Positions 17,986-53,962 of a DNA stretch of 64,000 nt are shown in pieces; position 1 is the first letter of the stretch; every line of letters begins with the position of its first letter. Source of the stretch: Naegleria gruberi (taxonomy: Eukaryota); assembly GCA_000004985.1 (NCBI GenBank), contig GG738846.1; one strand, given 5' to 3'. A model generated the notes under the pieces. The model was given only the letters and a program-made list of their open reading frames with translations. It was not told the DNA's origin and did no database searches. Both the position numbers and the translations under genes were made by a program.

Positions 17986-18776
17986 ATTATCAACGAAATG
18001 CTCCTTCTCTCAAAAACAGCGCCCCAATATCGATAAGCATGCCTTGCTTATTAAGAGGACTCATGTTTCGATTTGGAAAATTAATATTTTCCGAGAGGTG
18101 ATCTTTGGAGAAATATAAAAGTGAGACTATTATTGATTTGACTCCAAATAATATTTGATTAGAAACATTTTATAACTGGAATGATACCCTTAAATCCAAT
18201 TCAAATTGCAGGTTTAAATATCAGTAAAACTTCTAATTAAAATTTACATATATTAATCATCGAAACTCTTCAATTTTGATTTAATTCCAATGTTGCAATC
18301 AAAAGAATAAAGTGAATCAGCTAGAGTCTTTCTCAAAGGCATTAACACGGTTTTAAAATCAATTAATCAGAATGGATCTCTAACTTTTGTAGATCATATC
18401 AAACAATTGAAAATTCTTATCATTTCAATGGTCCATCTTGACAATGAGTTTTCAGAAATAAAACTGCTTGAAACATAACAAGGTGTTTACTATAGATATA
18501 CCATTTCTTACAAGTAATGAATTGACTAAAATCTGACAAACGTATAATCAAACTCATATAAAAGAGAGATTATTCTGCCCTAGATGGAAATCAAGAAATG
18601 GTACTTGGAAATGTTTATTTGGATTGAAATAACCCAAAGTATGACACGATATAATAATCATCATTATTACTAAACATTGGAATTTAAGGTTATTAATAAA
18701 TGAAGAAAATTAAGCCTTAAATTTGTAATATTTTGGCGGGAAAGTTTTTACAGAAATTTATTTTTAATTTAAAAAA

Positions 18777-18855
18777 ATGTCACAAATCTATCACATGTTA
18801 ATTCATCAAGAACACCAAATTAATTCTTTAAAATGTGATTTAATCTTCAAAATCC
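18777..18855. repeat. Short dispersed repeat family member (~75 nt), copy 3
   Basis: ATGTCACAAATCTATCACATGTTAATTCATCAAGAACACCAAATTAATTCTTTAAAATGTGATTT is about 80% identical to the reverse complement of 27590-27660 and 28170-28240. Confidence 0.45.
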
Positions 18856-18964
18856 TCCCAGTCTTCAAAATTGATCGGCGATTTAATAAGGCTTGCAAAC
18901 TTGTCAATAATTTCAAAATAAGCCTTTTTCAAGTCAAAGTCAGAAGAATTAACATTTCTTTCTT

Positions 18965-19054
18965 TTCACAAAAGACACACAATTCATAATTATCGCTTAG
19001 ACAAACAAAGGTGTTACATGAATCACACTTGCATCAGTTGGATTCATTATTGAC
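18965..19054. repeat. Left terminal inverted repeat of the 18965-20539 element
   Basis: Direct alignment with the reverse complement of 20452-20539. Confidence 0.65.
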
Positions 19055-20451
19055 TTTGGTATCAAGCCTCTTATACCAAGCCATTCTCGTAACACCAGAT
19101 AACCCTGTTGCTTTTTGAATAACCTTGCATAACTTAATGGTGTAATCTAAGGTTCTTTCTTTGGCGGTTCTGAAAAGCAATTTCAAATCAAAATTTTCAT
19201 CCTTAGGATCTAGAATTTGATTTGAATTAATTATTTCTAATAATTCCTTGGTGGAATAGAGTTTCATTTTTTTAAAAGTACTTTACTATTGAAACGTTCC
19301 ATTATTATTCATATTCTTCTCAATTATTTAATATTAATCTAACAGTTTATTATTATTATTATTAATAAATTGTTAAATGTCTACTAATGATATTGAATTG
19401 GAATGGTTTGATTCATCCTTAGATGAAAATCTAAAATTCAACCAACAAATAAACCAGAAAATGTTTAATGGAAAAAGGTATTGCTTAGTAATGATAATTG
19501 GATCATTTCAACAAGATTTAAGAACTACCAATTGAATCAAATTGAAAAATCACATTATTATCGGAATTTCTCAATCCAGTTAAAAGACAGAGAATTGGTC
19601 TCCTATCAGAACAAGTATCTGCTTGTATCCTTGTTTATTTGTACCATGAAAGAAACGTAGTATTTATTATTGCTGAGAGTTCTGGTTCTGTCTCTCTTTG
19701 TCTTACAATTATGGATGAACTCTATTCTGTTGTGAGTAATAATAATAACAAGGATTAAAGAATATTAGTAAAATGAGGAAATGTATCAACAAGGATTTAT
19801 GGAGAAACTTCTCCATAGCCTTTTTTTAATCCCCTTTAAAATGGCTGGATGTAGAATTAGCCTCACCGATTATCTTTCCCAGTTCAGAAATGATTTCAGT
19901 TCATATTCTTGTCCTTCCAAATACCAAAACACTTACCATTGACAGAAATTCCTCAAGGATAATCAATTGACAATCCGATTTGTATTCACCCATGTAGGAA
20001 TTGTTTGGTTGAGAGAGGAATTTTGGTTTTCCACCTCTCTCCTTAGTAGTTGATAGATTTTGAATGGTATGATTCGAATTGAGTTGCTGGAGAGATGTTG
20101 TTGGCAAAAGTATAATAAGGTGCTACCACTGTGACACAAAACACACTTTTACAAAATAGAAAATTTTATTAGAATGCAAGTTGGTGGAATTTATGAAACT
20201 ATTTTTATTTCTATACGAAAGACTTATTTAGAAAGTCTGATTTCGAATATTTTTCTTAAAGAGAGGATTCACATTGTTCAATGGAATAGAAGAACGATTG
20301 GATAGTGAATTGAGGGAATTATCTCATAAGAAAACTGGGAAATTTAGGCTCATTTTGTCCATAAATCCATATCCCAGATACAATTCCTCATCATTTTACT
20401 ATTAATAATAAATTATAGTCTCTTATATCATAACGACCTTAGAGACTAGCT

Positions 20452-20539
20452 CAACAATGAATCCAACCGATGCAAGTGTGATTCGTGTAACACCTTTGTT
20501 TGTCTAAGCGAAAATTATGAATGGTGTGTCTTTTGTGAA
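20452..20539. repeat. Right terminal inverted repeat of the 18965-20539 element
   Basis: Reverse complement of 18965-19054. Confidence 0.65.
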
Positions 20540-20572
20540 TTAATTAAGTGTGCTTCAGAACCACTTCCAAAT

Positions 20573-22133
20573 ATGGTCATGTGGCAACCAAAAAAGGGAG
20601 ATTGTGTTGTTGGATTTTTAGAGAACGATGAGTTGACCTCACCATTACAATTATCTAACATTCCATTATTTAATCCCAATTCCATCAAGAAAAAGAAGGA
20701 CATTGTTGAATTTGAAAGAAACGACAATTCAAACCTTTTATTAAGAATTAGAAATTTATTTTTAGAAGAGAGTACAGAAAGGGTAAATAATTTATATGAA
20801 AAAAAGAGCAAGAAATTAACAAACGAAAGTGTTAAAAGAAAGAAGTATTCTAATTCTTCTGATCTGGACTTGGAGAAGGATTTTGAAATTATTGACAAGT
20901 TTGAAAGTCTTTTTAAATCGCCAATCAATTTTGAAGAGTGGAAGGAGAAGAATGTGATTGAGAATTTTTATCCTTCATCTTTGCAAGAGGAAAAGCAAGT
21001 TGATAATTTAGCAAGAAACAACAAATATATAGACAGTCTTCCGACCAATAATCATTGTAATTTGTTTTACCCAACCACGACCACTGCAAAACAAGAAAAG
21101 TTCCAATTGGTTGCTGAATATTTTGAAAAGGAGTATGGCTTGAAGGTTTTATCTGATTTTCCAAAGAGCTTTTCATGCATTTATGGTTTTCTTTATATTT
21201 TCAGAAAGGATAATGGTAGAATTGAATCAAAAATTCAAATTGGGGAAAGACAGAACAAAGACTTGCCATCAAAGCCCTAAGAAGATGTGAAATGGCTTTT
21301 ATATTTCCACTAGAACAGGTGGAAAACAAAAAGGAAGGCCTTGTCAAGGAAAGCAAAGCGATTTGCAGATTGTTAGATTTGGGTTTCGGTCCGTTGAATG
21401 AATTACTCTCCAGTGACAGTGTTACAGATTGTAGATTGGATAGATTGTTCAATGGGGATCGATTCTTCTCAAATTCCAGCAGAGATTTGCAAATCAATTA
21501 CAAAACAAGTCGTATTCACACTCTTGATAAGGGTGACTCTTATTCTTGTTTTATAGATGATGGAAACAACTTTGTAATTCAATCAGATGAGAGAATAATT
21601 GAAAGATCTCCATTTGTGATTAGATTGGATCAAGAAACTTTGGAATCATTCTTTCCAAATCTTCCAACTGAGGTAAAGGATATGTATAATCTTTTAAAGA
21701 GAGTCATTGGATATTCTAAAAAGTATAGCTTGTTAAGATTTGCTTCCTTATTTCAATGCAACCCAAAACCAGCAACTGGATTATCAGTTAAGAAAATTGT
21801 TTTATTAAGAATTTTAATCAAGTTAATAATTTGAAAATTATATTTCCAATTGACGTAGGTGAATTTCAAAGAGTTGATTTTGCCAATTCCCAATTCGTTT
21901 TTAAGAATGCCAATATTCCACTCACACATTTAAAGATGAACTCTAGATTGTTCAATACATTAGCTGTTCAAATCAAATTGAGTAATTCAATTTTCAGAGA
22001 TTCATTCAAAATTACATTAGATGATGATGATGGAGATGATGATGAAGATGATGGAGAAGATGATGAAGAAGATGAAAATGATGATGGAGAAGATGAAGAG
22101 AGAGGAACATCAAAAAAAACAAAATTCGATTAA
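20573..22133 (+). CDS. Hypothetical protein with poly-acidic C-terminal tail (D/E-rich), fragmented over three ORFs and frames
   Basis: ATG at 20573. Three consecutive same-strand ORFs (20573-21280, 21292-21834, 21831-22133) are 12 nt apart or overlapping. This suggests short introns or indels, for example GTAGAA at ~21217 to CCACTAG at ~21326. The tail DDDDGDDDEDDGEDDEEDENDDGEDEE is typical of histone-chaperone-like proteins. Structure unresolved. Confidence 0.35.
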
Positions 22134-26063: not shown

Positions 26064-27007
26064 AATTTGGAACTCATCAACAATTAACCTTTCCTTCTGA
26101 TCCGATGGGATCAATGACTCTTGATGAAAATCCAATGATGAGTAATATTCCATCAAGTGGTGCCACTGCTGGTACTAGTACTGGTAGTAATCAACAACAA
26201 CAAAATACAATAGTATTGAGTGGAGATGATTCTGATGATGAAATGACCAATGTGGATTATTCACAATATAGTTTTTGGAACCTTGAATATTATATTCCAT
26301 TCTTTAATGTGAATACTAATGAAGTACTCAGGAGAATAACCAAACCATATCTCTTTTTTTTGAACACTGACGAATCTTTTGTATCATACACAAAGAGAGG
26401 AAAGAGACAATCTGATCTGTGGGGACCATTTTGGATTATCACAACACTTATTGTTGTAATTGTCATGACTAGTAATATTGGACACTTTTTTAATTTAAAT
26501 GCTATCGGAAAAGAGTTGGAGGGAGATTTTCAACAATCTGGATCCAATAATAATACATCAGGAAATGAAGCTTTCCGTCGACCAACAAGTGATTTATTAG
26601 AATGGACAACTGACTTTTCACTCATTTCTGTAGGAGCAACAGTGTTTTATGCATTTTCTATGGTAGTTCCTGCTCTTTTATGGGTTGCTATGAAATATAA
26701 GGGTGTAACTGTTAGTCTTGTTGAAACCATATGTGTCTATGGATATTCTTTCGCAGTAGTTATACCACCACTTGTTTTATGCATGTTCAATATTACTTGG
26801 TTGAGATGGATTTTGATTATGGGAGGATTTTTATATGCCAGTGTTTTTATAGTATTTGGTTTATTCAAAGAATGGAAGAAGGTTGTCACTGGTCCACAAG
26901 ATAATATTTTCCTTCTTGTTTTTGCAGCTTTTATTGTACTTTCTCACCTCATTTTGGCTGTCTTTGTCAAGTTTTACTTTTACACATTTTCAGTTGATTT
27001 GAAATAA
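26064..27007 (+). CDS. Yip1-domain (YIPF) protein, exon 2 of 2
   Basis: The 66-nt intron ends in TTCTAG (26062-26063) and joins in phase 1. The Yip1 signature is FWNLEYYIPFFNVNTNEVLRRI ... DLWGPFWIITTL, followed by 5 TM helices. Confidence 0.7.
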
Positions 27008-27430
27008 ATTTTGTAATATTTAATTGAAATATGGTTTATCATTGAAATTGTAATATATTTATTATAACTAAACTGAATAGGAATAGTAGTGTTTTTTCAA
27101 TAATGAAATTTTTATTCTACAAGTGCATCATTATACTTTGTTGGGAATTAGTTGTTGATTGCTAAAGGAAGAAGCAATGGTTTATCCTTTGGAATAAAGT
27201 GAGGAATAGTTGACGTTTTGTTCAAGTCAATGTTGATTTTAAAAAAATACAAACACCTTACAACAATTCCACAACACCACTACCCAAATAAGAAAGTATT
27301 ATAAAAATAAAACCTGAACTTCAATGACGAAATCAGAATTGGATAATTGAAATAAACTAAATCACAAAAAAGAGAAAACCAATAAACAAAATAAGCCACA
27401 TATAAAACCACCATTGAAACAAAGTTTTGC

Positions 27431-27665
27431 TTGTTGATGGTAAAATATTTGTTGTGGTGGTTTTAATAATTAATAACGAGGGGATGGAAAATCCGTCATC
27501 CAAATCCCACACAACTCCTCCACTAAAATCCAGAATCCACAATATCTGGGATTTGGATTAAGGTTATTCCATCCCCTCTTAACAACAAATCACATTTAAA
27601 AGAATTAATTTGATTTTCTTGATGAGATAAAATGTGGTTGATTTGATGTGTCATTTTTGAAATTT
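27431..27665. repeat. Local duplicated segment, copy A (carries the MITE-like insertion)
   Basis: Apart from the 27474-27579 insertion, this aligns base for base with 28123-28240. Confidence 0.6.
27474..27579. mobile_element. MITE-like ~105-bp insertion with 12-bp perfect TIRs (GAGGGGATGGAA ... TTCCATCCCCTC), flanked by TTAA/TAA
   Basis: The sequence is present in copy A and absent from copy B. The ends are perfect inverted repeats. An internal second inverted pair is TCCAAATCCCA / TGGGATTTGGA. The empty site TAATAATTAACAACAAAT is reconstituted exactly when the element plus one TTAA is removed. Confidence 0.5.
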
Positions 27666-28122
27666 TCTTTAATATTGGTAAAATCTTAATCCAAACTTTA
27701 CAGTAAAGTCAGACTTGGAAATTATAGTCAAAGTTTAATTGTGGTAGTATAATAGTGTTTCTTCTATTACAAGAACAATAATAAAAGGTAGAGAAATTTA
27801 AATTTTAAAAATAAAATATAGAAAGAAATATGATTATTCTGAGTTAATGGATATCTATTTGCAAGAAATTATCTTAACCATCAATCATTACAAAGATCTT
27901 ACCATTAATGCAATCACAAACCATCATCAAGATCCAGATTATGATCATATTGATTTCATTAAGCAAAATATTGTAAAAGAATTGAAGTTTTAATGGATCT
28001 GCAATTAAAATTGGTGCTGGAAGTGTATATTGTAAAAGGTTGAGATATTTGTGTTAAATATTGCAACCTTCTTACAACCACCAAAAAGCAAGACAAAAGA
28101 AAGCGAATTCTTTTTCTTTTTG

Positions 28123-28240
28123 TTGTTGAGGGTAAAATATTTGTTGTGGTAGTTTTAATAATTAACAACAAATCACATTGAAAAGAATTAATTTGATTTT
28201 CTTGATGAGATAAAATGTGGTTGATTTGATAAATCATTTT
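28123..28240. repeat. Local duplicated segment, copy B (empty site)
   Basis: Reads TTGTTGAGGGTAAAATATTTGTTGTGGTAGTTTTAATAATTAACAACAAATCACATTG..., an uninterrupted match to copy A. Confidence 0.6.
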
Positions 28241-28394
28241 CTTTGATTTCAGTTGATAAAGCTTGTTTTTGGTATTACCGTTTTTGTGAATAATATATAT
28301 TTATTTTGAAAATTACAATTCTTTTCCTCTAAAGTTGTTGATTGAGAATAATTGTTTGATCTGAAAGTTAGTTATGATGCACTATCTTGATTTT

Positions 28395-28981
28395 TTATTC
28401 TTCATTTGGTTGATCATCTAATAATTTACCATTATTTTTTTCTGATAAAGCTTCATCATCCTCATTTTCAGAATAATAGGCCTCACTTCCACCATCATTA
28501 ACATCCAAGTAATTGATTGCCAATTGCTTGTTTTCAGCTTCTTCCAAATCAATTGATAGGAATTTTGAAGTATCAATTCTGGCAGCTTGAGGATTTGGAT
28601 TTTGATGATGTTTATCCTTGAGTAAATATGTTTCCATTTTCCCCTTTCCTTTAACATCTACCTCTCTAGTTTCGAATTCAAATAAATCATAAACTCTTTC
28701 ATAAGTTGCTCTTGAAATTTGAATCCTTCCTGGTTCACCTGTAGATTCCATTCTTGAGGCAGTATTGACAGCATCTCCCCACAAATCATAGGCAAACTTT
28801 GAACTTCCTAATACACCTGCTGTTACTGATCCTGTGTGAACACCAACACGAATGTTTAAATTTGTATTATGTTTGACATTGTAATTGTATAAAATTGTAA
28901 ATTGACCCATTCCAAAATTAATAACCTTTTCAGGGTGATCTGATTGCTTTTGATGCAAACCACCAGCAAGGAAATAGGCAT
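28395..28981 (-). CDS. PAS-cyclase, exon 2 of 2 (rest of cyclase catalytic domain)
   Basis: The 53-nt intron (28982-29034, GTAAGT ... AATTTAG) joins in phase 1. This restores KIKTIGDAYFLAGGLHQKQSDHPEKV ... IRVGVHTGSVTAGVLGSSKFAYDLWGDAVNTASRMESTGEPGRIQIS, the canonical class III cyclase motifs. Confidence 0.75.
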
Positions 28982-32000: not shown

Positions 32001-33718
32001 GCTCTTTTAATCAAGTGATTTGCATAGATAAACGCATTAGAATCCTCAGAGGCAACAAAGTTTGCAATGAGCATACTTGATGTCAATAGTAAATTAACAT
32101 CTGTAAAACTTTTTTGAGAAGCAGCACCCTTAACAAACAGCATGGCTAAATTGAAATCACCATGCTTTTGTTCGTTGCGTTGAACATTTCTTGCCTTTGT
32201 CATGGCAAATCGAATGAAAATGTTAACACTTCTAAATCGACGTTCTTCTTCGATAACTGAAGCTAAATTATTGACAAATAATGTTGGATCACCCTCTTTG
32301 GATATCTTCCAATTATTTACATCATCAATACCAAGGTACACTGAAAATAAATGCTTTACGCTTCTATAGACAAGTCTGGTATATATTTCCATAGTTACAC
32401 AACCCAAAACAAATAATAAAATAGCAAAGCCAAATGATGCACCAGCCAATGATACTCCAAATATATTGTCATCTAAGTAATTGATTGGTAAGGTAGTCAG
32501 TATTAAAGTTGAAATGGAAAATCCAAGTTTTGCAAATGTAAATCCAGACCATAAACTATTTTCCCATCTATTGAAAAAAGGAAGGGACCTAAATAAAACA
32601 ACAATATACAATAAACTAACTAGAATAGATATAATTGGAACTATATAACTGTACATGCTCGGAATTAAATTTGAAATTATCCAATAAAGTTGATTTGTAA
32701 ATGCAATTACCATTACAAATATCGAATTATCCATTGAACCAAATGAGCCTTCCTTTGGACTGAATTCTATTAACATTAATAATCCCATTTGAGTAATTAC
32801 AAATTGTACAATTAATCCAATCGAAGAAAATACAATCATTACTGTATTCAGTACGCTTGTACACGATTCTTCTCTGTATCTTACAAGGTGTTGTGTCATG
32901 TAATCGCAATTAATAAATGATGTTAGTATATGGGTTATGGGTACTGCTACTACTGTTATTATTATTGTAAGTATTCTTACAAATTGCAGTAATTTCTTTG
33001 TGTGTCTGCTTCCTGTTTTTGTAAATCTATATACTATATAAAGTAATACTCCATTTGATAATAGTAATATAATAAAGAAACTAGCAATTACAACAATACC
33101 AACATATGGTACCTTTTCCATTAACCAAGTTCTCATGAATCCAAATACTAGCATAATCCACCAACCATAATCACCCCATTGATATGATTTAATATCCTCA
33201 TATGGTACAGATAAACTTGAGGAAGTAAGCATGATAAATGTGTAAAAGAGCATGTAAAATATATTTGTTTTAGAAAAGACTCTTCTCAGCTTACCAGAGA
33301 GAGTACGTTGTTGAGCAATGGACCAGGGCTGATTCTTTTCATTCACCCTCTTGGCTGTATTCATCAAGCTTTGTTGCTGTATTCCAACCAGAAATGTTAC
33401 TATATTCTCTTCAAATGCTTTAAATGATTCTGAGGATAGAATTGAAGACCGTGTTGTGGTTGCTGTCCTTGCAGTTCCAGTGTCGGACCCACCTGAACGA
33501 TTACTCATCGTTAAACTTTGTGGACCGTGTGAGAAGTGTCCTTCAATAATCGAATTGGATTCACTTGTATTACTATTATGAAAACTAGGTAGTGGATCTT
33601 CAGTGCTAGCCCTCAATGGATTTACAGTCTGATTTAAATTTGTTAAGGGTACGATGGCTGAACTTTTCCTTGTTCTACCAATAGCACCGACTGCTCCAAG
33701 GGTTGGAAGTGTCGACAT
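29035..33718 (-). CDS. Multi-pass membrane PAS-domain adenylyl/guanylyl cyclase (class III), exon 1 of 2
   Basis: ATG at 33718. There are at least 12 predicted TM helices in two clusters, coiled-coil linkers, then a PAS domain (IICNVDGSIRFFNQAAQDMFGYRITEIIGTGL...). The start of the cyclase homology domain is FSDIVGFTSLSS ... KIKTIGG. The exon ends at a GTAAGT donor. Confidence 0.75.
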
Positions 33719-34611
33719 GTTGATGCTACTGTTACTACTAGCTTAGATAATAATAAGAATTATATATGATGATGACTATATGATGACGTTGCAAAAAACC
33801 TAAAGTTGTGAGATAAACCTGTATATGTTGTGTACTCTCTCCTAGATGTTTGTACTATATTTCTTAGGTTTTTTGATGCTTAATTGATGCAATGATTAAG
33901 CAACTAGCAGATCCTGATGATTAAATAATATTACTGTTATTGTGTGATAGTTAATAGTGCTCGGCTCGCAACGATGAAGGGTCTATTGATGTTGTAGAGT
34001 CTTTTAAGGCCAACACATTAAGGCGAGTGTATTGTGGAGGGTCTTTTCAGAGAGACGTTTTAGGTTGGTGAGTAACTTTTTTTGGGTGGGAAAAACAAAT
34101 GACCGTAAATTGGCCTGTAACGATTTGGCTATTAGCGCGAAGGTGAAAAAGCAGCTTGTGTTTTGACTTGACTGGCCTCAGATGAATTTGACTTGTATTG
34201 AACTTATTAAAAGAACTACCAATAACCAAATAACAAGTTGACAAGTTGTAGGTTTCTCTATCTCTATATCAAGTGAGAGCTAATTCAATGGTGATAAATT
34301 GTAAATGTTATTACATTGCTGAATTCAAATATCATTCACACATAATGTCCTTTCGAAAATATTAATACGCTCCAAGTATAGTTTGTTAGTTTTTCTCCTC
34401 GTCGTCGTTTGGTTCATGAAAGTTCTATATTTTGTGACTGTTGGCTACGGGCTCTTTTTTGTACATTTCAAAATTTAGATGCTCTGCGAATTGGCTCATT
34501 TCATAGCAAGTAATATTGACAAATTAAATTTAAAAACAACTTGGTGAAACAATGAAGAGTTCAAAAAGTTGGTGCTGGTGGTTTGACAACATTTTTTATG
34601 ATTTATTGACA

Positions 34612-44881: not shown

Positions 44882-47270
44882 ATTCAAGCAGCAAATAGGA
44901 TTGGAAATGGAGGAGGTTGTAAAACCCTCAGTAAAACACTCAATTCTTCAAACTCAAGGAATGAAGTTGGATACATCAAGCACAGAATCATTCTCTCTGA
45001 GCTCACAATTTTCATCTGAGGATGTTCAACTTTCGCTCTTTAATGGATTAGTTTTCTATCTTGTTGGATTTCCTACAGACCTAGTAACTAGTGTGAGAAA
45101 ATTAATTAGAAAGTATGGTGGAAATGCCACTTTTACAACAAACAGTTTGAATTATATAATAGCTAACGACAATACACCACCTGAAACCATCAAAAATCTC
45201 AAAGAGAAACTCAATTATGATCCTCCAGTTGTTTCATACAAGTGGTTCCTTAATTGTATAGAGAGTATGCAAGTTTTACCTATTGAGGAGAAAAATGAAC
45301 AAAATGAAAAAATATCCTCAAGTACATTCGATGACAATAATATTGATATTGATATCAGCGAAGAGGATTTAGCTGATGCAATCCAATCTCAAACTTGTAT
45401 TACAAATGAGATGACACATGAAAAGAATGAAAAGCTTCTCTTTTCTAGCCTTTTGTTCAAGCTTGCTGACAATTTATTGTCACAAAAACAAATTGCTAAA
45501 TCTATAATTGAAAGGAATGGTGGAAAATTTGTGAATTTAGGACTAGATTATGATTTTATAATATATCCAGAGTCTTGCAAAACCCCTCGTGAAACTAACC
45601 CAAAAATAAGAACACTAAAATGGCTAAAAGACTCGGATGCTGAAAAAACTGTAAAGACTGCAGAGGAGTGTCTACTTTATGTGCCTACCTTCAGATTGGC
45701 TCTTGATAAAATCAAAACTGAAAATGAAAGGCTCCTCATTGTAATTTCCGGATACCCTGATCAAAAGCAGATATTACAATCTATTATTGAGGCTCTGGGT
45801 GGTTCCACTTCCAAGACTATGAGAAAAACTGCAGACATTCTGGTTTGTGAAAAGAAATCTGACAAGTCGGATTTTGCCATCAAACACCAGATACCAGTTG
45901 TTAATGAGAAATGGCTGTTTGATAGCTATAAGGCTGGATACTTCCTTTCTCCCACAGATTTTATTTTCAATCCTAACTCTACAAATTCTAACATCACACC
46001 CAATATTTCTGTGAAAACCAGCATCACAACCACCAACACTACAGACAAAAATATTAATAAGGATACCTCGACTAGCACCACACCGACAGAAAAAAAATCA
46101 ACCAATCTTCCTGTATTTGAAAAGACTGAAAAGGCAGATAAAGAGGATCAGATAACACCAACAAAGACTATAATACTCGATGAAAATGCACGAGATTCCA
46201 ATTCTCCTCATAGTACTACCAATATCCAACCCCCAACTATGCCAGCTCCTCCCACTCCTACCACTGTAATACCTGTTGATACTGCAGCTTTAACTAATTT
46301 CAAAAGCAAATTGCTCGATAAACTACCAAAGAGGAAGGATACCACTACAAAGGCAATAGAATTTTCTGAACAATCAAACGTACATTTTATTCCAAAAAAG
46401 AATTTGGAAAATCTGACATTTTTCAATTCTCAAAACACTTCAGAATCCAATAGTCTCTCACACTATGGAGGCACCTCTGAAGCAGAAAATGAATACAATG
46501 AAAAGGTAAAGAATGATAGAAATAGAACTATTCCAGATTTTGCTATGAGTCTTGGGACATTTGCTGAAACCCAAGTTATTGATCACGACAATGAGGTTCA
46601 AAAAATCAAATGGAAACAATCGAATGCAGAGAAACGTCACTTTTTACTTTCTTCATTAGCCGAAAAGCAAAAAAAGGAGGTCACAAAATACATCCAAGCC
46701 TTGGATGGAGTAATAGATGAATTGTACATACCCAATGTGACAACACATTTTATTGCTGGCTCAGCAGTTCAAACTGAGAAATTTCTATGTAGTGTAGCTG
46801 CAGGTATTTGGATTCTTTGCCCAAAATATGTTGAAGATAGTTACCAACAGCAATACTGGATACAAGAGGATGACTATCAATGGATCCATAAGCAAGCCGA
46901 TATTAAGTCAGATCAACAGGATGCTATCAGGTATCTCATAACTGCCCAAAAAATTAGGGATAACAAGACTAAGCCATTTTCAGGAATGTCAGTCTTTTTC
47001 GTTCAGAACACAAACCCTTCATTTGTTAGAATTATTACTGCAGGAGGTGGGGTGATACTCCCTTCCATAACTGATCCACGTCTCACTCATATTTTCGTAA
47101 AGGAGGCAAGTGACACTGAAGATATGAAAAAAGCATATCCCAATACTTTTGTGACCTATGAAGAGCAAATTAGCGGTTTTCTAATGACTGATGAAAAGAA
47201 AACTTCTAGAGAAACATCAAGTGAAGAAAGTGAAAAGAAGAAGAGGAAAGTAATAAAGAAAAGCAAATAA
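44882..47270 (+). CDS. TopBP1/Dpb11-like, exon 4 of 4 (at least 3 further BRCT domains)
   Basis: The 39-nt intron (44843-44881) ends in ATCAG. The BRCT motifs are FNGLVFYLVGF ... VVSYKWFLNCIES, LLIVISGYPDQ ... EKWLFDSYKAG, and SGMSVFFVQNT ... VILPS. Total CDS is 2949 nt, giving 982 aa. Confidence 0.7.
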
Positions 47271-47287
47271 TTTGTTTTCAATGTTTG

Positions 47288-47980: not shown

Positions 47981-48167
47981 TTTTTTTGAAATTGTAAAGA
48001 TTTTGTATTACTCCTCGTTTGGTGATTTTTTTAATTACCTGAAATAATGTGTTAAATGTCAAAGGTAGCCGTCAGGTTTAAAGGTAGTTCTCCACAAACT
48101 AAAAATTATTAATTTCGCTCAAAATTTATCTAATTACCCGCGAATTGGTAATAAATTGAAAAAAAAA

Positions 48168-51100
48168 ATGTTGGCAAGAAAATTGTTTGGAAAATGCACA
48201 ACAAATAATCGCCATCTCGTATTAAAATCATCGCAATATGCCACAAAATTCTACTCCACAAGTGGTGCTGAAAAAAATTTAGTTGCAAATATTGAGAGTT
48301 GTATAAGAAATATTAATAATCATTATCGGAGTAAGAAAGAAAAAGAATTTAATAACGGTTTGCTGGATTTGAAGCAATTTTGCTCCCAATTAAATGATGC
48401 AACGGAAAGGAAACTAAATGAAAAATCGTGGAATTTTTTGATTCAACAATTTTGTAGAAACGAAGCCTTTAGTGATGAAGCTACATTTTGGTTCAGAAGA
48501 GTTATGAAAGAGAAGAAATTAGCCACTCCAAATTCATTCACTTTGACTGCGATATTAAAATCATTCTCTACTATTGGTGAATTAGATATGTGTGAAGAAA
48601 TTCTACAAGAATTAGAAAGTCAAGGACTATGCAACGTTTTCTCATACATATACTACACAAAAGCTTGTCTTCAAAATGGAAACACTGAGAAGGCTTTCAG
48701 TGTTATTGGACGTATGGAGAGTAAACAAATTGAACCAAGTTTTGGAATATACATTCCTCTTCTAAAGGAAGCAACTAACCAAAATAATGTGGAAGTTGGA
48801 TTGAAACTTTATGATATGATCAAAAAAAGTAACTTGGCAAGTTTTCAATTATCATCTTGTATCGCCACTTTTGCTTTGAAGGTGAACCGACCAGATATTG
48901 CAATCGAAGAATACGAAAAGATTAAACAGAGTGAATTGATGAATGTTATAACTTGGACATGTTTAATTCAAGCATACATTCAACAAAATGATACTGAGAA
49001 AGCAATAGATACGCTTATTGACATGAAAAAACATGGTATATACCCAGATTCTGCAACATTCACAATTTTATTGAGTGCATGTGCAAATTCTAATATGTAT
49101 GAAGAAGGAGTTAAAATTCATGAACTTGCAAAACAAACACTCAAAGATTTCACAATTGGATTATCAAACACAATTATTAATTTTTACACAAAATGTGGTT
49201 ATTCAAATATTGCCATAGAAGAATGTGAAAAATTGAAACAGAACGGATTGATGAATGTTGTAACTTGGACATGTTTAATTCAAGCATACATTCAACAAAA
49301 TGACATTGAGAAAGCAATAGATATGATTATTGACATGAAAAAGCATGGTATTTACCCAGATTCTGCAACATTCACAATTTTATTGAGTGCATGTGCAAAT
49401 TCTAATATGTATGAAGAAGGAGTTAAAATTCATGAACTTGCAAAACAAACACTCAAAGATTTTCAATTAGACTATCAACAGCAACTATTAATTTTTACAC
49501 TAAATGTGGTTATTCAAATATTGCCATAGAAGAATGTGAAAAATTGAAACAGAAAGGATTGATGAATGTTATAACTTGGACATGTTTAATTCAAGCATAC
49601 ATTCAACAAAATGATATTGAGAAAGCAATGAATACGATTATTGACATGAAAAACAGTGGTGTTATACCTAGATTCAACAACATTCACAATTTTATTGAGT
49701 GCATGTGCAAATTCTAATATGTATGAAGAAGGAGTTAAAATTCATGAACTTGCAAAACAAACACTCAAAGATTTCACAATTGAATTATCAAACACAATTA
49801 TTAATTTTTACACAAAATGTGGTTATTCAAATATTGCAATCGAAGAATACGAAAAGATTAAACAGAGTGAATTGATGAATGTTATAACTTGGACATGTTT
49901 AATTCAAGCATACATTCAACAAAATGATATTGAGAAAGCAATAGATACGCTTATTGACATGAAAAAACATGGTATATACCCAGATTCTGCAACATTCACA
50001 ATTTTATTGAGTGCATGTGCAAATTCTAATATGTATGAAGAAGGAGTTAAAATTCATGAACTTGCAAAACAAACACTCAAAGATTTCACAATTGAATTAT
50101 CCAACACAACTATTAATTTTTACACTAAATGTGGTTATTCAAATATTGCCATTGAAGAATGTGAAAAATTGAAACAGAACGGATTGATGAATGTTGTAAC
50201 TTGGACATGTTTAATTCAAGCATACATTCAACAAAATGACATTGAGAAAGCAATAGATATGATTATTGACATGAAAAAGCATGGTATATACCCAGATTCT
50301 GCAACATTCACAATTTTATTGAGTGCATGTGCAAAATCTAATATGTATGAAGAAGGAGTTAAAATTCATGAACTTGCAAAACAAACACTCAAAATATTTT
50401 CTTTAGAGCTATCGACAGCGACTATTAATTTTTATACTAAATGTGGTTATTCAAATATTGCCATTGAAGAATGTGAAAAATTGAAACAGAAAGGATTGAT
50501 GAATGTTATAACTTGGACATGTTTAATTCAAGCATACATTCAACAAAATGACGTTGAGAAAGCACTGAATACGATTACTAATATGAAAAACAGTGGTGTT
50601 GTACCTAACTCAACAACATTCACAATTTTATTGAGTGCATGTGCAAATTCTAATATGTATGAAGAAGGAGTTAAAATTCATGAACTTGCAAAACAAACTC
50701 TCAAAGTTTTCACAATTGAATTATCGCAACACAATTATTAATTTTTACACAAAATGTGGTTATCCAAATATTGCAATCGAAGAATATGAAAAGATTAAAC
50801 AGAGTGAATTGATGAATGTTATAACTTGGACATGTTTAATTCAAGCATACATTCAACAAAATGACATTGATAAAGCAATAGATACGCTTATTGACATGAA
50901 AAAACATGGTATATACCCAGATTCTGCAACATTCACAATTTTATTGAGTGAATGTGCAAATTCTAATATGTATGAAGAAGGAGTTAAAATTCATGAACTT
51001 GCAAAACAAACTCTCAAAGATTTCACAATTGAATTATCAAACACAATTATTAATTTTTACACTAAATGTGGTTATTCAAATATTGCCATAGAAGAATGTG

Positions 51101-53364
51101 AAAAATTGAAACAGAAAGGATTGATGAATGTTGTAACTTGGACATGTTTAATTCAAGCATACATTCAACAAAATGACATTGAGAAAGCAATAGATATGAT
51201 TATTGACATGAAAAAGAGTGGTGTTTACCTAGATTCAACAACATTCACAATTTTATTGAGTGCATGTGCAAATTCTAATATGTATGAAGAAGGAGTTAAA
51301 ATTCATGAACTTGCAAAACAAACTCTCAAAGATTTCACATTTGAACTATCAGACACAATTATTAATTTTTACACAAAATGTGGTTATTCAAATATCGCCA
51401 TTGAAGAATGTGAAAAACTGAAACATAACGGATTGATGAATGTTGTAACTTGGAACTGTTTAATTCAAGCATACATTCAACAAAATGACATTGAGAAAGC
51501 AATAGATATGATTATTGACATGAAAAAGCATGGTGTTGTACCTAATTCAACAACATTCACAATTTTATTGAGTGCATGCGCAAATTCTAATATGTATGAA
51601 GAAGGAGTTAAAATTCATGAACTTGCAAAACAAACACTCAAAGTATTTTCTTTAGAGCTATCGACAGCGACTATTAATTTTTATACTAAATGTGGTTATT
51701 CAAATATCGCTATTGAGGAATGTGAAAAACTGAAACAGAAAGGATTGATGAATGTTGTAACTTGGACATGTTTAATTCAAGCATACATTCAACAAAATGA
51801 TATTGAGAAAGCAATGAATACGATTATTAATATGAAAAAGAGTGGTGTTGTACCTAATTCAACAACATTCACAATTTTATTGAGTGCATGTGCAAATTCT
51901 AATATGTATGAAGAAGGAGTTAAAATTCATGAACTTGCAAAACAAACACTCAAAGATTTCACAATTGAATTATCAAACACAATTATTAATTTTTACACAA
52001 AATGTGGTTATTCAAATATTGCCATAGAAGAATGTGAAAAATTGAAACAGAACGGATTGATGAATGTTGTAACTTGGAACTGTTTAATTCAAGCATACAT
52101 TCAACAAAATGATATGTCAAACACCCACACTCCATCAGATGCAGAATATGGGTTGAATAAGGCATTTAGAGTCTATCAGGAAATGAAACAAAAAAACTTT
52201 GAACCTAACAGTTATACCTTCAGCATTTTAATGGCAGCGTGTGGAGAATATGTAGCTTCAAACATTGGAATTCAAATAATTGAGGATATAAAACAAAACA
52301 ACATGGATATCTATGAAGAGGTTATTTCTGGTATGGTTTATTTTTACTCTAGAGTTGGCCAAAAAGAAACTGCACAACAATTATTTGATAATCTTGTTAG
52401 AAAGAAGGATGAATCAAAAGAACCACTTTCTATCGTCACTTATACTAATATGCTTTCTTGTTATGCACAACACGGTAAAGGATATGAAGCTCAAAAACTG
52501 TTCGATGAAATTGTTGAAAAGAAAGTCAAAATTGATGAAATAACTCTAATAGTATTATTGAATGCATATTCACATTGTGGAATGGTTGAAGAAGCAATTC
52601 AATTATATAATGATATGAAACCAAAACATAATTTTAATCCAACCCTCTCTATTGATTGCGTTATGATTGATGTGTTTTCTCGTGCAGGAAGATTTGAGGA
52701 AGCAGAAAAACTAATAGGTAGTCGCAATGATATTGGTTTGTGGGGCGCATTGATGGGAGGATGTAGAAAATTCAATAAGATTGAACTTGGTGAAAAAGTA
52801 TTTAACAAAATGACAACAATTGATGAAAAACTAACCTCACCCTATATATTATTATCCCATATCTACACATATCATGGATTAAACGAAAAAGCTAACAAAT
52901 TGCAAAAATTGATGCGAAAAAGAGGTATAAAAAAATTGCCTGGTATTGTGTATCATGAAGAAAATGGCATTGTATTTAGATTTATTTCTGGATCTGACGA
53001 CCACAAAGAGGACTCTCAAATGTTTGCACAAATTGAGAGAATGAGAGATGAAATATTTCGTAAAATTATTAAGGCTGGATATAGACCAGATACAAGATGG
53101 GTTACCAGAACCGAATCATTGTCAGAGGAGGAAAAAGTTAATTTGCTTTATCGACATGCTGAAAAAACAGCCATTGCTCACGCCTTTGTTTTGAATCCAA
53201 ATAGAAAGAAAATAGTATTAACAAAAAATCTGAGAGTTTGCAATGATTGCCATTCGGCTACTACGTACATTTCAAAAGTGATGGATGTTGAAATTATTGT
53301 AAGAGATGCCAATAGGTATCATCATTTCAAAGATGGAAAATGTAGTTGTGGTGGTTATTGGTAA
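48168..53364 (+). CDS. PLS-type pentatricopeptide repeat protein with C-terminal E/DYW cytidine-deaminase domain; reading frame broken by three 1-nt indels (pseudogene or assembly error)
   Basis: ATG at 48168 (the track start at 48156 is TTG). The N-terminus MLARKLFGKCTTNNRHLVLKSSQYATKFYSTS looks like a mitochondrial presequence. There are about 10 tandem 105-aa units (a P-L-S PPR triplet: ...NVVTWTCLIQAYIQQNDIEKAIDMIIDMKKHGIYPDSATFTILLSACANSNMYEEGVKIHELAKQ...). The C-terminus carries HAEKTAIAHAF ... CNDCH ... CSCGGYW, which is the HxE/CxxCH zinc-binding DYW signature. Frame breaks: a 1-nt deletion near 49465, a 1-nt insertion near 49665, and a 1-nt insertion near 50715. Confidence 0.7.
48880..52110. 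repeat. Tandem array of ~10 near-identical 315-bp units (coding PLS triplets)
   Basis: By eye, units such as 49107-49421, 50027-50341 and 51687-52000 differ at only a few percent of positions. Confidence 0.8.
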
Positions 53365-53962
53365 ATTTGTTCCAAATACACAACATGATACAAATTATTA
53401 AACTAATTTTGATAAATTCCAATTTTGGTGATCTTCACACACTTACAACTAATAATCATAAATGTGTGGCATTCAGATAGAATATTAGAAACAATAATAA
53501 ACAATACCAATAATGAATTCGAAACAACAATTGGTTTATTATTGTTTCTAATATTCTTGCCTTTGTTTCGTCTTGGCAAATGTCTTGTTGAAAAACTAAA
53601 CTGTAAAGACAGTTATATCCATCAACTTCACAAAATGACAAACTTCCCACAATAGGAAATTTGTCCTCCTTTGCTCTTCATACTATTTTAGACTCTTCAA
53701 AACATCATTCACACTTTACAAAACCTGAAGGTTAGGCATCTAACCACAACATTTTAATTATTGATAAATATCAATAATCAATTACCAAGGACAAATCCAC
53801 TCGCAACAATTCGCACCTCACATGCAATAATAATCCACTCACTCTTTCACATTTTATGAAACAAGCGCACACGCTCACAAAAAAGTTGCCAAGATTTTCA
53901 AAAAAAAACAAATCACGCATTGCAAACTCATTGTTTTGTTTCTGTTTGGAGAAGAGAAGAAA

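What the first reader, a model, noticed from the sequence alone, without database searches (positions are those of the whole stretch)
27431..28240. MITE-like 105-bp element with perfect 12-bp TIRs, inserted in one copy of a local segmental duplication and absent from the other
Copy A (27431-27665) and copy B (28123-28240) are collinear except for 27474-27579. That segment starts GAGGGGATGGAA and ends TTCCATCCCCTC (a perfect inverted repeat). It contains a second nested inverted pair. It sits between duplicated TTAA (or TAA) target sites. Removing the element plus one TTAA recreates copy B exactly. This is the signature of a cut-and-paste miniature transposon (piggyBac-like TTAA or PIF/Harbinger-like TAA target), caught as an empty/filled site pair within 700 bp.
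Basis: seen in the sequence. Interest (0 to 1): 0.6.

Follow-up and report, generated by a model that had tools for sequence, protein, structure and literature searches.

The report
MITE-like TTAA insertion in Naegleria
A 105-bp hairpin-forming insert with perfect 12-bp inverted ends and a duplicated TTAA sits in one of two nearby 124-bp repeat copies in a Naegleria gruberi intergenic region; it looks like a small non-autonomous DNA transposon, an ordinary kind of feature, but no second copy could be found with the data I could reach.

Summary
The window is Naegleria gruberi nuclear DNA. In the 1.39-kb region between the convergent Yip1 and adenylate-cyclase genes there are two 124-nt direct repeats. 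With the insert removed they align without gaps at 93.5% identity. Copy A carries an extra block of exactly 109 nt, which is 105 nt plus one TTAA. The block contains a 101-bp hairpin core (27478-27578) with perfect 12-bp terminal inverted repeats and 32-nt arms matching at 28 of 32 positions. Its GC content is 44.6% against 25% around it. It carries six AATCC/GGATT motifs and has no coding capacity. These are the structural hallmarks of a TTAA-targeting cut-and-paste MITE. The purine-purine termini and the AGGGG motif fit Kolobok, which is documented in Naegleria, better than piggyBac.

The defining multi-copy property could not be shown. There is one copy in 64 kb, no transposase in the window, and no relative in the protein, viral, metagenome or prokaryote collections. 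None of those collections holds the rest of the N. gruberi genome. The "segmental duplication" also has a third, diverged partial copy 8.6 kb away, so it may be a dispersed repeat.

Verdict: probably a MITE-like transposon relic, a new member of a known kind and of low interest. Family membership is unproven.

The parts
27425..27473 (+). Copy A of the 124-nt repeat, left part (49 nt). It ends in the left TTAA.
   Evidence: aligns to 28117-28165 of copy B.
27470..27473 (.). Left TTAA (target-site duplication, left copy)
   Evidence: the 109-nt block can be removed at 5 equivalent offsets because of this 4-bp direct repeat. Sequence read.
27474..27477 (+). TAAC: 4 nt between the left TTAA and the left TIR. 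It is part of the 105-nt insert but has no counterpart at the right end.
27478..27578 (.). 101-bp hairpin core of the element. It has 32-nt arms (27478-27509 and 27547-27578, 28/32 complementary), a 37-nt loop, 44.6% GC and six AATCC/GGATT motifs.
27478..27489 (+). Left terminal inverted repeat GAGGGGATGGAA (perfect 12 bp)
27567..27578 (+). Right terminal inverted repeat TTCCATCCCCTC (perfect 12 bp)
27579..27582 (.). Right TTAA (target-site duplication, right copy)
27583..27657 (+). Copy A of the 124-nt repeat, right part (75 nt)
   Evidence: aligns to 28166-28240.
28117..28240 (+). Copy B of the 124-nt repeat, uninterrupted. The empty site is TTAA at 28162-28165.
18773..18841 (-). Third, diverged partial copy (83-85% over 59-72 nt) of the right part of the repeat. 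It begins 9 nt beyond the position equivalent to the insertion site, so it cannot serve as an outgroup for presence or absence of the element.

Best explanation
The 105-bp segment is a miniature, non-coding, non-autonomous cut-and-paste DNA transposon, or the relic of one. It inserted at a TTAA in one copy of a short repeat in a Naegleria gruberi intergenic region and duplicated the TTAA. Proposed mechanism (inferred, not shown): a DDE transposase encoded elsewhere in the genome binds the GAGGGGATGGAA terminal inverted repeats, and possibly the internal AATCC/GGATT motifs. It excises the element and integrates it at TTAA with 4-bp staggered cuts, and repair of those cuts gives the flanking TTAA pair. 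The most likely source is a Kolobok-superfamily transposase, which has a TTAA target and purine-purine termini and is reported in Naegleria. The alternative is piggyBac, which is annotated in N. lovaniensis. Shown here: the anatomy, the exact filled/empty pair, the foreign composition and the lack of a local template. Inferred: mobility, the superfamily, and the order of events. Insertion into copy A after the duplication and precise excision from copy B give the same picture.
For: Removing the exact 109-nt indel (105 + TTAA) restores copy B. The TIRs are perfect over 12 bp, sit at the ends of the indel, and extend to 28/32. The hairpin is far more stable than shuffles. GC is 44.6% against 25.2% in the surrounding intergenic DNA. 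There are six AATCC/GGATT motifs, two of them in the loop and so not explained by the palindrome, with 0/5000 shuffles reaching that count. No source sequence for the insert exists elsewhere in the window; the best non-self hit is 17 nt at E = 0.06. There is no coding capacity and no protein relative in any frame, and no Rfam family. The organism is N. gruberi. On TTAA-specific superfamilies in the genus: Kolobok has a TTAA TSD and 5'-RR...YY-3' termini and is listed for Naegleria (PMC9587614). Kolobok-type T2-MITEs have a TTAA target plus a terminal AGGRR motif, and one Xenopus Kolobok TIR reads AGGGGATCTATC (PMC6004289), compared with G-AGGGGATGGAA here. PiggyBac-class repeats (29 copies) were annotated in N. 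lovaniensis (PMC6125883 Table 3).
Against: Only one copy was found: none elsewhere in the 64-kb window and none in any searched collection. No transposase domain occurs in any ORF of 150 aa or more in the window. The left end is untidy, with 4 nt (TAAC) between the TTAA and the TIR, so the termini are not symmetric. The AGGRR motif is offset by one base from the terminus. TTAA is common in this AT-rich spacer (16.6 per kb), so a 4-bp flanking repeat is weaker evidence here than in a balanced genome. A single filled/empty pair comes from paralogues, not alleles.
Confidence: 0.6

Rival explanations
1. The hairpin was an integral part of the ancestral repeat unit, and copy B lost it. Replication slippage or microhomology-mediated repair between the two TTAA repeats, stimulated by the hairpin, deleted it precisely. 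No transposition after the duplication is needed, and the hairpin need not be a transposon.
For: The indel is bounded by a 4-bp direct repeat, and the segment forms a strong hairpin. That is the classic substrate for palindrome-stimulated deletion (established knowledge from bacterial and yeast genetics). The third copy of the repeat starts 9 nt past the site, so it cannot polarise the event.
Against: This does not explain why a 44.6% GC palindromic segment with repeated AATCC motifs sits in 25% GC DNA flanked by TTAA in the first place. The simplest origin for such a segment is still an insertion. The deletion end points would have to coincide with the outer edges of the inverted repeat.
Confidence: 0.12
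2. It is a one-off non-transposon insertion: filler or captured DNA joined into a double-strand break at or near TTAA, or a fold-back (snap-back) synthesis product. In that case it is single-copy genome-wide.
For: Only one copy was found anywhere. The left junction is untidy, with the extra TAAC.
Against: Snap-back or templated repair copies nearby sequence, but no template exists in the 64-kb window. The arms are separated by a 37-nt non-palindromic loop and are imperfect (28/32), unlike fresh fold-back products. The exact 4-bp duplication and the terminal position of the perfect 12-mers are not expected from random capture.
Confidence: 0.1
3. It is a transposon of another superfamily. The real target duplication would be TAA (PIF/Harbinger, giving a 106-nt element) or TA (Tc1/mariner, giving a 107-nt element), and the extra matching bases would be coincidence in AT-rich DNA.
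For: The TTAA repeat contains TAA and TA. All three parses regenerate copy B. AT-rich flanks make one or two extra matching bases likely.
Against: The longest exact flanking repeat is 4 bp. Under the TAA or TA parses the terminal bases of the two ends no longer mirror each other (TAACGAGGGG or ATAACGAGGGG against AGAGGGG). From my own knowledge, Stowaway-type termini (CTCCCTCC...) are not matched.
Confidence: 0.1
4. The hairpin is a functional small-RNA precursor (miRNA- or siRNA-like) or another structured element, whatever its origin.
For: It forms a stable 32-bp imperfect stem. There are sub-threshold generic hairpin hits to miRNA models (MIR7504 30.2 bits against a gathering score of 83; MIR847 24.7 against 184).
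Against: All Rfam hits are far below gathering scores. There are no homologues, so conservation and covariation cannot be assessed, and no expression data are available here.
Confidence: 0.05

Closest known systems
Kolobok-superfamily MITEs (for example the Xenopus T2-MITE family, including Xmix)
   Same: Both are short non-coding elements with TIRs, a TTAA target-site duplication and purine-purine 5' termini (GA here). An AGGRR-type motif lies at the end of the TIR (AGGGG here). Kolobok is reported in Naegleria (PMC9587614; PMC6004289).
   Different: AGGRR begins at base 2 of the TIR, not base 1. Four extra nt (TAAC) separate the left TTAA from the TIR. No multi-copy family and no Kolobok transposase with matching TIRs has been shown. 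At 101-105 bp the element is small.
piggyBac-derived MITEs
   Same: Both show an exact TTAA duplication and an empty site compatible with the precise excision typical of piggyBac. PiggyBac-class repeats are annotated in N. lovaniensis (PMC6125883).
   Different: From my own knowledge, canonical piggyBac termini are 5'-CCC...GGG-3', and PMC9587614 contrasts them with Kolobok's RR/YY. Here the termini read GAGGGG.../...CCCCTC, so the G-run is on the opposite strand from what piggyBac would need.
PIF/Harbinger 'Tourist'-type MITEs
   Same: Both are small, AT-context, hairpin-forming elements. A TAA (TWA) 3-bp duplication is contained within the observed TTAA.
   Different: The exact repeat is 4 bp, not 3. 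The termini are not symmetric under the 3-bp parse. No Harbinger partner is known here.
Bacterial and cyanobacterial long palindromic repeats that share the 12-mer ends (metagenome contigs L002-L010)
   Same: They have the identical 12-nt ends GAGGGGATGGAA...TTCCATCCCCTC at 87-111 nt overall length.
   Different: The interiors are unrelated, with local alignment scores at shuffle level. The contigs are 41-55% GC. In some of them the palindromes extend beyond the 12-mers. These are ascertainment hits of the search pattern, not relatives.

Membership tests
MITE (miniature inverted-repeat transposable element) | Short (under about 800 bp) with no coding capacity | tested here: met
   The insert is 105 nt. 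The longest open frames are 35-36 aa, and they have no relative among 5.8 billion proteins.
MITE (miniature inverted-repeat transposable element) | Terminal inverted repeats | tested here: met
   The TIRs are perfect over 12 bp and extend to 28/32. The 12-mer is unique to these two sites in 64 kb.
MITE (miniature inverted-repeat transposable element) | Target-site duplication, shown by comparing filled and empty sites | tested here: met
   TTAA lies on both sides. Removing 105 nt plus one TTAA restores copy B. The empty site is a paralogue, not an allele.
MITE (miniature inverted-repeat transposable element) | Many highly similar copies in the genome | tested here: inconclusive
   There is one copy in the 64-kb window. 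There were 0 hits in protein space, 0 true hits in viral, metagenome or prokaryote DNA.
Kolobok superfamily (non-autonomous member) | [quoted passage not shown] | tested here: met
   the definition is from PMC9587614.
Kolobok superfamily (non-autonomous member) | Termini 5'-RR ... YY-3' | tested here: inconclusive
   The TIR core begins GA and ends TC, which meets the rule. If the 4 extra nt TAAC are counted as part of the element, the left terminus is TA, which does not.
Kolobok superfamily (non-autonomous member) | Terminal AGGRR motif (the T2-MITE definition) | tested here: not met
   AGGGG is present but starts at base 2 of the TIR (G-AGGGG). It is not directly adjacent to TTAA (the definition is from PMC6004289).
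Kolobok superfamily (non-autonomous member) | An autonomous element with a Kolobok DDE transposase and the same TIRs in the same genome | not testable with these tools
   There is no transposase domain in the window. The rest of the genome is not available.
piggyBac superfamily (non-autonomous member) | TTAA target-site duplication and precise excision | tested here: met
   TTAA is duplicated, and the empty paralogous site is an intact TTAA. Excision itself was not observed.
piggyBac superfamily (non-autonomous member) | Termini 5'-CCC...GGG-3' (from established knowledge of piggyBac) | tested here: not met
   The termini read GAGGGG.../...CCCCTC.
PIF/Harbinger (Tourist-like MITE) | 3-bp TWA target-site duplication | tested here: inconclusive
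   TAA is nested in the observed 4-bp TTAA repeat. The 3-bp parse is possible but leaves asymmetric ends.

The most novel reading that the evidence does not exclude
The element belongs to a so far undescribed, recently mobile Kolobok-type MITE family in Naegleria gruberi, with a still active TTAA-specific transposase encoded elsewhere in the genome. I found no paper describing Naegleria MITEs. Such a system would be the first defined native cut-and-paste transposon and TIR pair in Heterolobosea. It could be developed into an insertion or transgenesis tool for an organism that is hard to manipulate genetically.
Probability: 0.1. Interest if true: 0.4.

Novelty: new member of a known kind. Interest (0 to 1): 0.2.

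Why it matters
If confirmed, it would add a small TTAA-targeting MITE to the sparse repeat catalogue of Naegleria gruberi, whose repeat content is about 5% (PMC6125883). It would also give defined TIRs with which to look for the cognate Kolobok or piggyBac transposase. That has modest value for genome annotation, and possibly for building genetic tools. It does not bear on any long-standing open question. MITEs with TIRs and target-site duplications are common in eukaryotes, and TTAA-specific superfamilies are already reported in this genus.

Tried and rejected
1. Other copies in the window. A 12-mer search with 1 mismatch and a sensitive BLASTN of the element found none.

2. JGI metagenome scan for both TIRs at 62-92 nt spacing. 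It returned 9 contigs in 3-4 families. All are GC-rich long palindromes on 41-55% GC contigs, with interiors unrelated to the element at shuffle level. I rejected them as homologues.

3. Viral contig scans. Two returned nothing. The third returned five bare 17-mer coincidences with no extension.

4. Prokaryote genome scan with the right arm. It returned nothing.

5. Protein-space proxy for other copies. All open frames of the element were concatenated and searched against 5.8 billion proteins, including Naegleria, Logan and ENA ORFs. There were 0 hits. The power is limited, because the element's own locus is not in that collection either.

6. The same proxy for the flanking repeat and its ATG-initiated ORF. 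There were 0 hits, so there is no support for an annotated gene family.

7. Structured-RNA reading. Rfam gave only sub-threshold generic hairpin hits in the region and nothing at gathering score in the whole window. The alignment fold of the three repeat copies gave -7.8 kcal/mol with 0 compensatory pairs.

8. Allelic or strain empty site. The exact N. gruberi NCBI gene model is not on record. One other N. gruberi-complex strain (ERR1078381) gave two short contigs, L001 and L011. L011 stops 12 nt after the cyclase stop codon. L001 covers 310 nt past the Yip1 stop. Its reliable anchors (window 27077 and 27744-27783) are about 150 nt apart there against 667 nt in the window, which hints that the copy-A region is absent. 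The alignment in between is too fragmented to call.

9. A putative third local copy at 27660-27760. It is at chance level, with 45/300 shuffles scoring as well.

10. Tandem-repeat reading of the region. TRF found nothing.

11. Autonomous partner in the window. Pfam scans of 38 ORFs showed no transposase. The inverted repeat at 18965-19053 / 20451-20539 turned out to be an inverted partial gene duplication, not transposon TIRs.

12. Literature. I found no paper on Naegleria MITEs and no published Naegleria Kolobok or piggyBac TIR sequences.

Full report
**What the window is.** The region is eukaryotic nuclear DNA of Naegleria gruberi or a near-identical strain.
- The ORF at 26105-27007 (+) is a Yip1-family protein. 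It is 100% identical to a protein from a Logan assembly and matches the NCBI N. gruberi 'Protein YIPF' model. The 91% identity to that model is consistent with a predicted intron removing part of the ORF. More distant hits are in N. lovaniensis, N. fowleri and Willaertia.
- The window is about 33% GC and has no tRNA genes.
- Its long ORFs are ordinary host genes: a PAS-domain adenylate cyclase, an RCC1-kinase, SRP54, BRCT, PPR-DYW, TMEM144 and others.
- The finding lies in the 1,387-bp spacer between two convergent genes. Yip1 ends at 27007. The cyclase runs on the minus strand, and its last exon is 28395-28958.

**Check of the observation.**
- The two repeat copies and the insert are real. 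After removal of a 109-nt block, copy A (27425-27473 plus 27583-27657) and copy B (28117-28240) are both 124 nt. They align without gaps at 116/124 = 93.5%.
- The block can be excised at five equivalent offsets (start 27470 to 27474) because it is bounded by TTAA at 27470-27473 and 27579-27582. Only two point substitutions remain in the tested span.
- One correction: the perfect 12-bp inverted repeats are at 27478-27489 and 27567-27578. Four bases (TAAC) therefore lie between the left TTAA and the left TIR, while the right TIR abuts the right TTAA directly.
- The arms extend to 32 nt at 28/32 and consist of two perfect 12-mers separated by a mismatched 8-mer.

**Is it more than chance?**
- The 12-mer occurs nowhere else in 64 kb even with one mismatch allowed, against 0.18 expected.
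- Only four loci in the window have any perfect inverted pair of 12 bp or more at 40-300 nt spacing. This is the only GC-rich one, and the only one that coincides with an indel.
- As single-stranded DNA the segment folds at -22.3 kcal/mol (z = -5.8), and 0 of 200 shuffles fold as well.
- The core is 44.6% GC inside 25.2% GC spacer DNA, so it is compositionally foreign.
- It carries six AATCC/GGATT pentamers against about 0.3 expected, and 0/5000 shuffles reach that count. Two of them lie in the loop, so the palindrome alone does not explain them. Short repeated subterminal motifs of this kind are typical transposase-binding sites in DNA transposons. That last point is established knowledge applied by inference.
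- Nothing else in the window could have served as a template for the insert. The best non-self hit is 17 nt at E = 0.06.

**What it most likely is.** The anatomy is that of a non-autonomous cut-and-paste DNA transposon: small size, no coding capacity, TIRs, an exact 4-bp flanking duplication, and an intact empty site in a paralogous copy.
- Two TTAA-specific superfamilies are documented in the genus. Kolobok has a TTAA TSD and 5'-RR...YY-3' termini and is listed for Naegleria (PMC9587614). PiggyBac-class repeats were annotated in N. lovaniensis (PMC6125883 Table 3).
- Kolobok-derived T2-MITEs are defined by a TTAA target and a terminal AGGRR motif, and one Xenopus Kolobok TIR reads AGGGGATCTATC (PMC6004289).
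- The present TIR reads G-AGGGGATGGAA. It has a purine-purine terminus and an AGGRR-type motif shifted by one base.
- From my own knowledge, canonical piggyBac ends are CCC...GGG, and these are not present.
- I therefore favour a Kolobok-like origin over piggyBac. This rests on a few terminal bases only.
- Whether the element entered copy A after the duplication or was precisely excised from copy B cannot be decided. The only further copy of the repeat begins 9 nt beyond the site.

**What could not be shown.** A MITE family is defined by multiple similar copies, and I found only one.
- The window has no second copy and no transposase.
- The tools do not hold the N. gruberi genome. The NCBI gene model is not on record for contig retrieval.
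- The only other N. gruberi-complex material is a metagenome sample (ERR1078381) with contigs of about 1 kb.
- As proxies I searched all open frames of the element against 5.8 billion proteins and got no hit. I also scanned JGI metagenomes, IMG/VR viral contigs and prokaryote genomes with TIR-based patterns.
- The nine metagenome and five viral matches share only the searched words. Their interiors are at shuffle-level similarity and their base composition differs.
- These negatives have little power for N. gruberi itself, so the copy-number criterion stays open.

**The flanking 'segmental duplication'.**
- It is a pair of 124-nt direct repeats 692 nt apart (583 nt without the insert). It is not a tandem array. 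A suspected third local copy is at chance level.
- The right ~70 nt recur, inverted and 83-85% identical, at 18773-18841 (E about 1e-15). That copy lies 12 nt from the breakpoint of an inverted partial gene duplication, 18853-19053 against 20451-20946.
- The unit is therefore at least a short dispersed repeat.
- All three copies keep one ATG-initiated open frame on the strand opposite to the A/B orientation (M..QI.H.L.HQE.QINS.KCDL). The third copy differs by an in-frame 3-nt indel, and the shared similarity starts at the AAAATG.
- In copy A the element interrupts this frame after codon 25.
- No protein in the large collection resembles it. The substitutions are not obviously synonymous-biased. 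There is no RNA covariation and no Rfam match. Its nature remains unknown.

**Cross-strain hint.** In the ERR1078381 strain, the Yip1 coding sequence is 98.4% identical at the nucleotide level.
- The sequence downstream of Yip1 matches the window up to 27077 and again at 27744-27783 (85%, E = 2e-6). Those anchors are about 150 nt apart there, against 667 nt in the window.
- A 32-nt piece also matches 28291-28320 in inverted orientation.
- This suggests that the spacer is structurally polymorphic and that the copy-A segment may be absent in that strain. The intervening alignment is too fragmented to use as an empty-site proof.

**Rivals.**
- (i) The hairpin is ancestral and was lost from B by palindrome-stimulated slippage between the TTAA repeats. 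This is possible, but it still leaves the origin of a GC-rich TIR-bounded segment flanked by TTAA unexplained.
- (ii) A one-off capture or fold-back repair product. It fits the single copy and the untidy left junction. It does not fit the absence of a local template, the non-palindromic loop or the exact duplication.
- (iii) A transposon of a TAA- or TA-duplicating superfamily. The parse is allowed, but the ends are less symmetric.
- (iv) A hairpin small-RNA gene. There is no positive evidence for it.

**Verdict.** The most likely reading is a MITE-like relic of a TTAA-targeting (Kolobok-like) DNA transposon, with confidence of about 0.6. It is a new member of a known kind and of low general interest. 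A single BLASTN against the complete N. gruberi genome would settle it.

Noticed in passing
window 18773-18841 (-), with 27583-27657 and 28166-28240 (+): The ~70-nt core of the repeat exists in three copies. Each keeps an ATG-initiated open frame (M..QI.H.L.HQE.QINS.KCDL) on the strand opposite to the A/B orientation, with an in-frame 3-nt indel in the third copy. The similarity starts at AAAATG. No protein homologue, no Rfam match and no RNA covariation were found, so its nature is unknown.
   Followed up: partly
window 18853-19053 (-) and 20451-20946 (+): There is an inverted partial duplication of a gene segment (89 nt at 94% plus 120 nt at 84%), with about 290 extra nt in the + copy. It first looked like transposon TIRs but is a paralogous gene fragment. 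The third repeat copy abuts its breakpoint.
   Followed up: partly
window 48156-53364 (+): There is a run of pentatricopeptide-repeat ORFs ending in a PPR protein with E motif and DYW deaminase domain (50635-53364). Self-hits recur at a period of about 624 nt (49190, 49814, 50751, 51375, 51999), suggesting recent tandem duplication within the array.
   Followed up: no
window 53479-53557: An AT-rich hairpin with perfect 19-bp arms and a 41-nt loop lies about 115 nt downstream of the PPR-DYW ORF stop. It has no TTAA-bounded indel evidence and no similarity to the element studied.
   Followed up: no
window 33792-33803 / 33864-33875: A perfect 12-bp inverted pair (CAAAAAACCTAA / TTAGGTTTTTTG) lies 60 nt apart, just upstream of the start of the adenylate cyclase ORF at 33718.
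   Followed up: no
L001 (Logan ERR1078381 contig) against window 27008-28394: The spacer between Yip1 and the cyclase differs structurally between strains. The anchors are 150 nt apart there against 667 nt in the window, and a 32-nt piece matches 28291-28320 inverted. The contig also begins with an Illumina adapter and an 81-nt inverted self-copy, which is an assembly artefact.
   Followed up: partly
L002-L010 (JGI metagenome contigs): Three or four unrelated families of GC-rich long palindromes (87-111 nt), on contigs that are probably bacterial, happen to begin and end with the same 12-mers, GAGGGGATGGAA...TTCCATCCCCTC. Their interiors are unrelated to the Naegleria element.
   Followed up: partly
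window 47253-47284 (-): There is a marginal fourth match to the repeat core (84% over 32 nt, E about 2e-4 to 2e-3), next to the end of the BRCT-domain ORF at 44901-47270. It may be chance.
   Followed up: no
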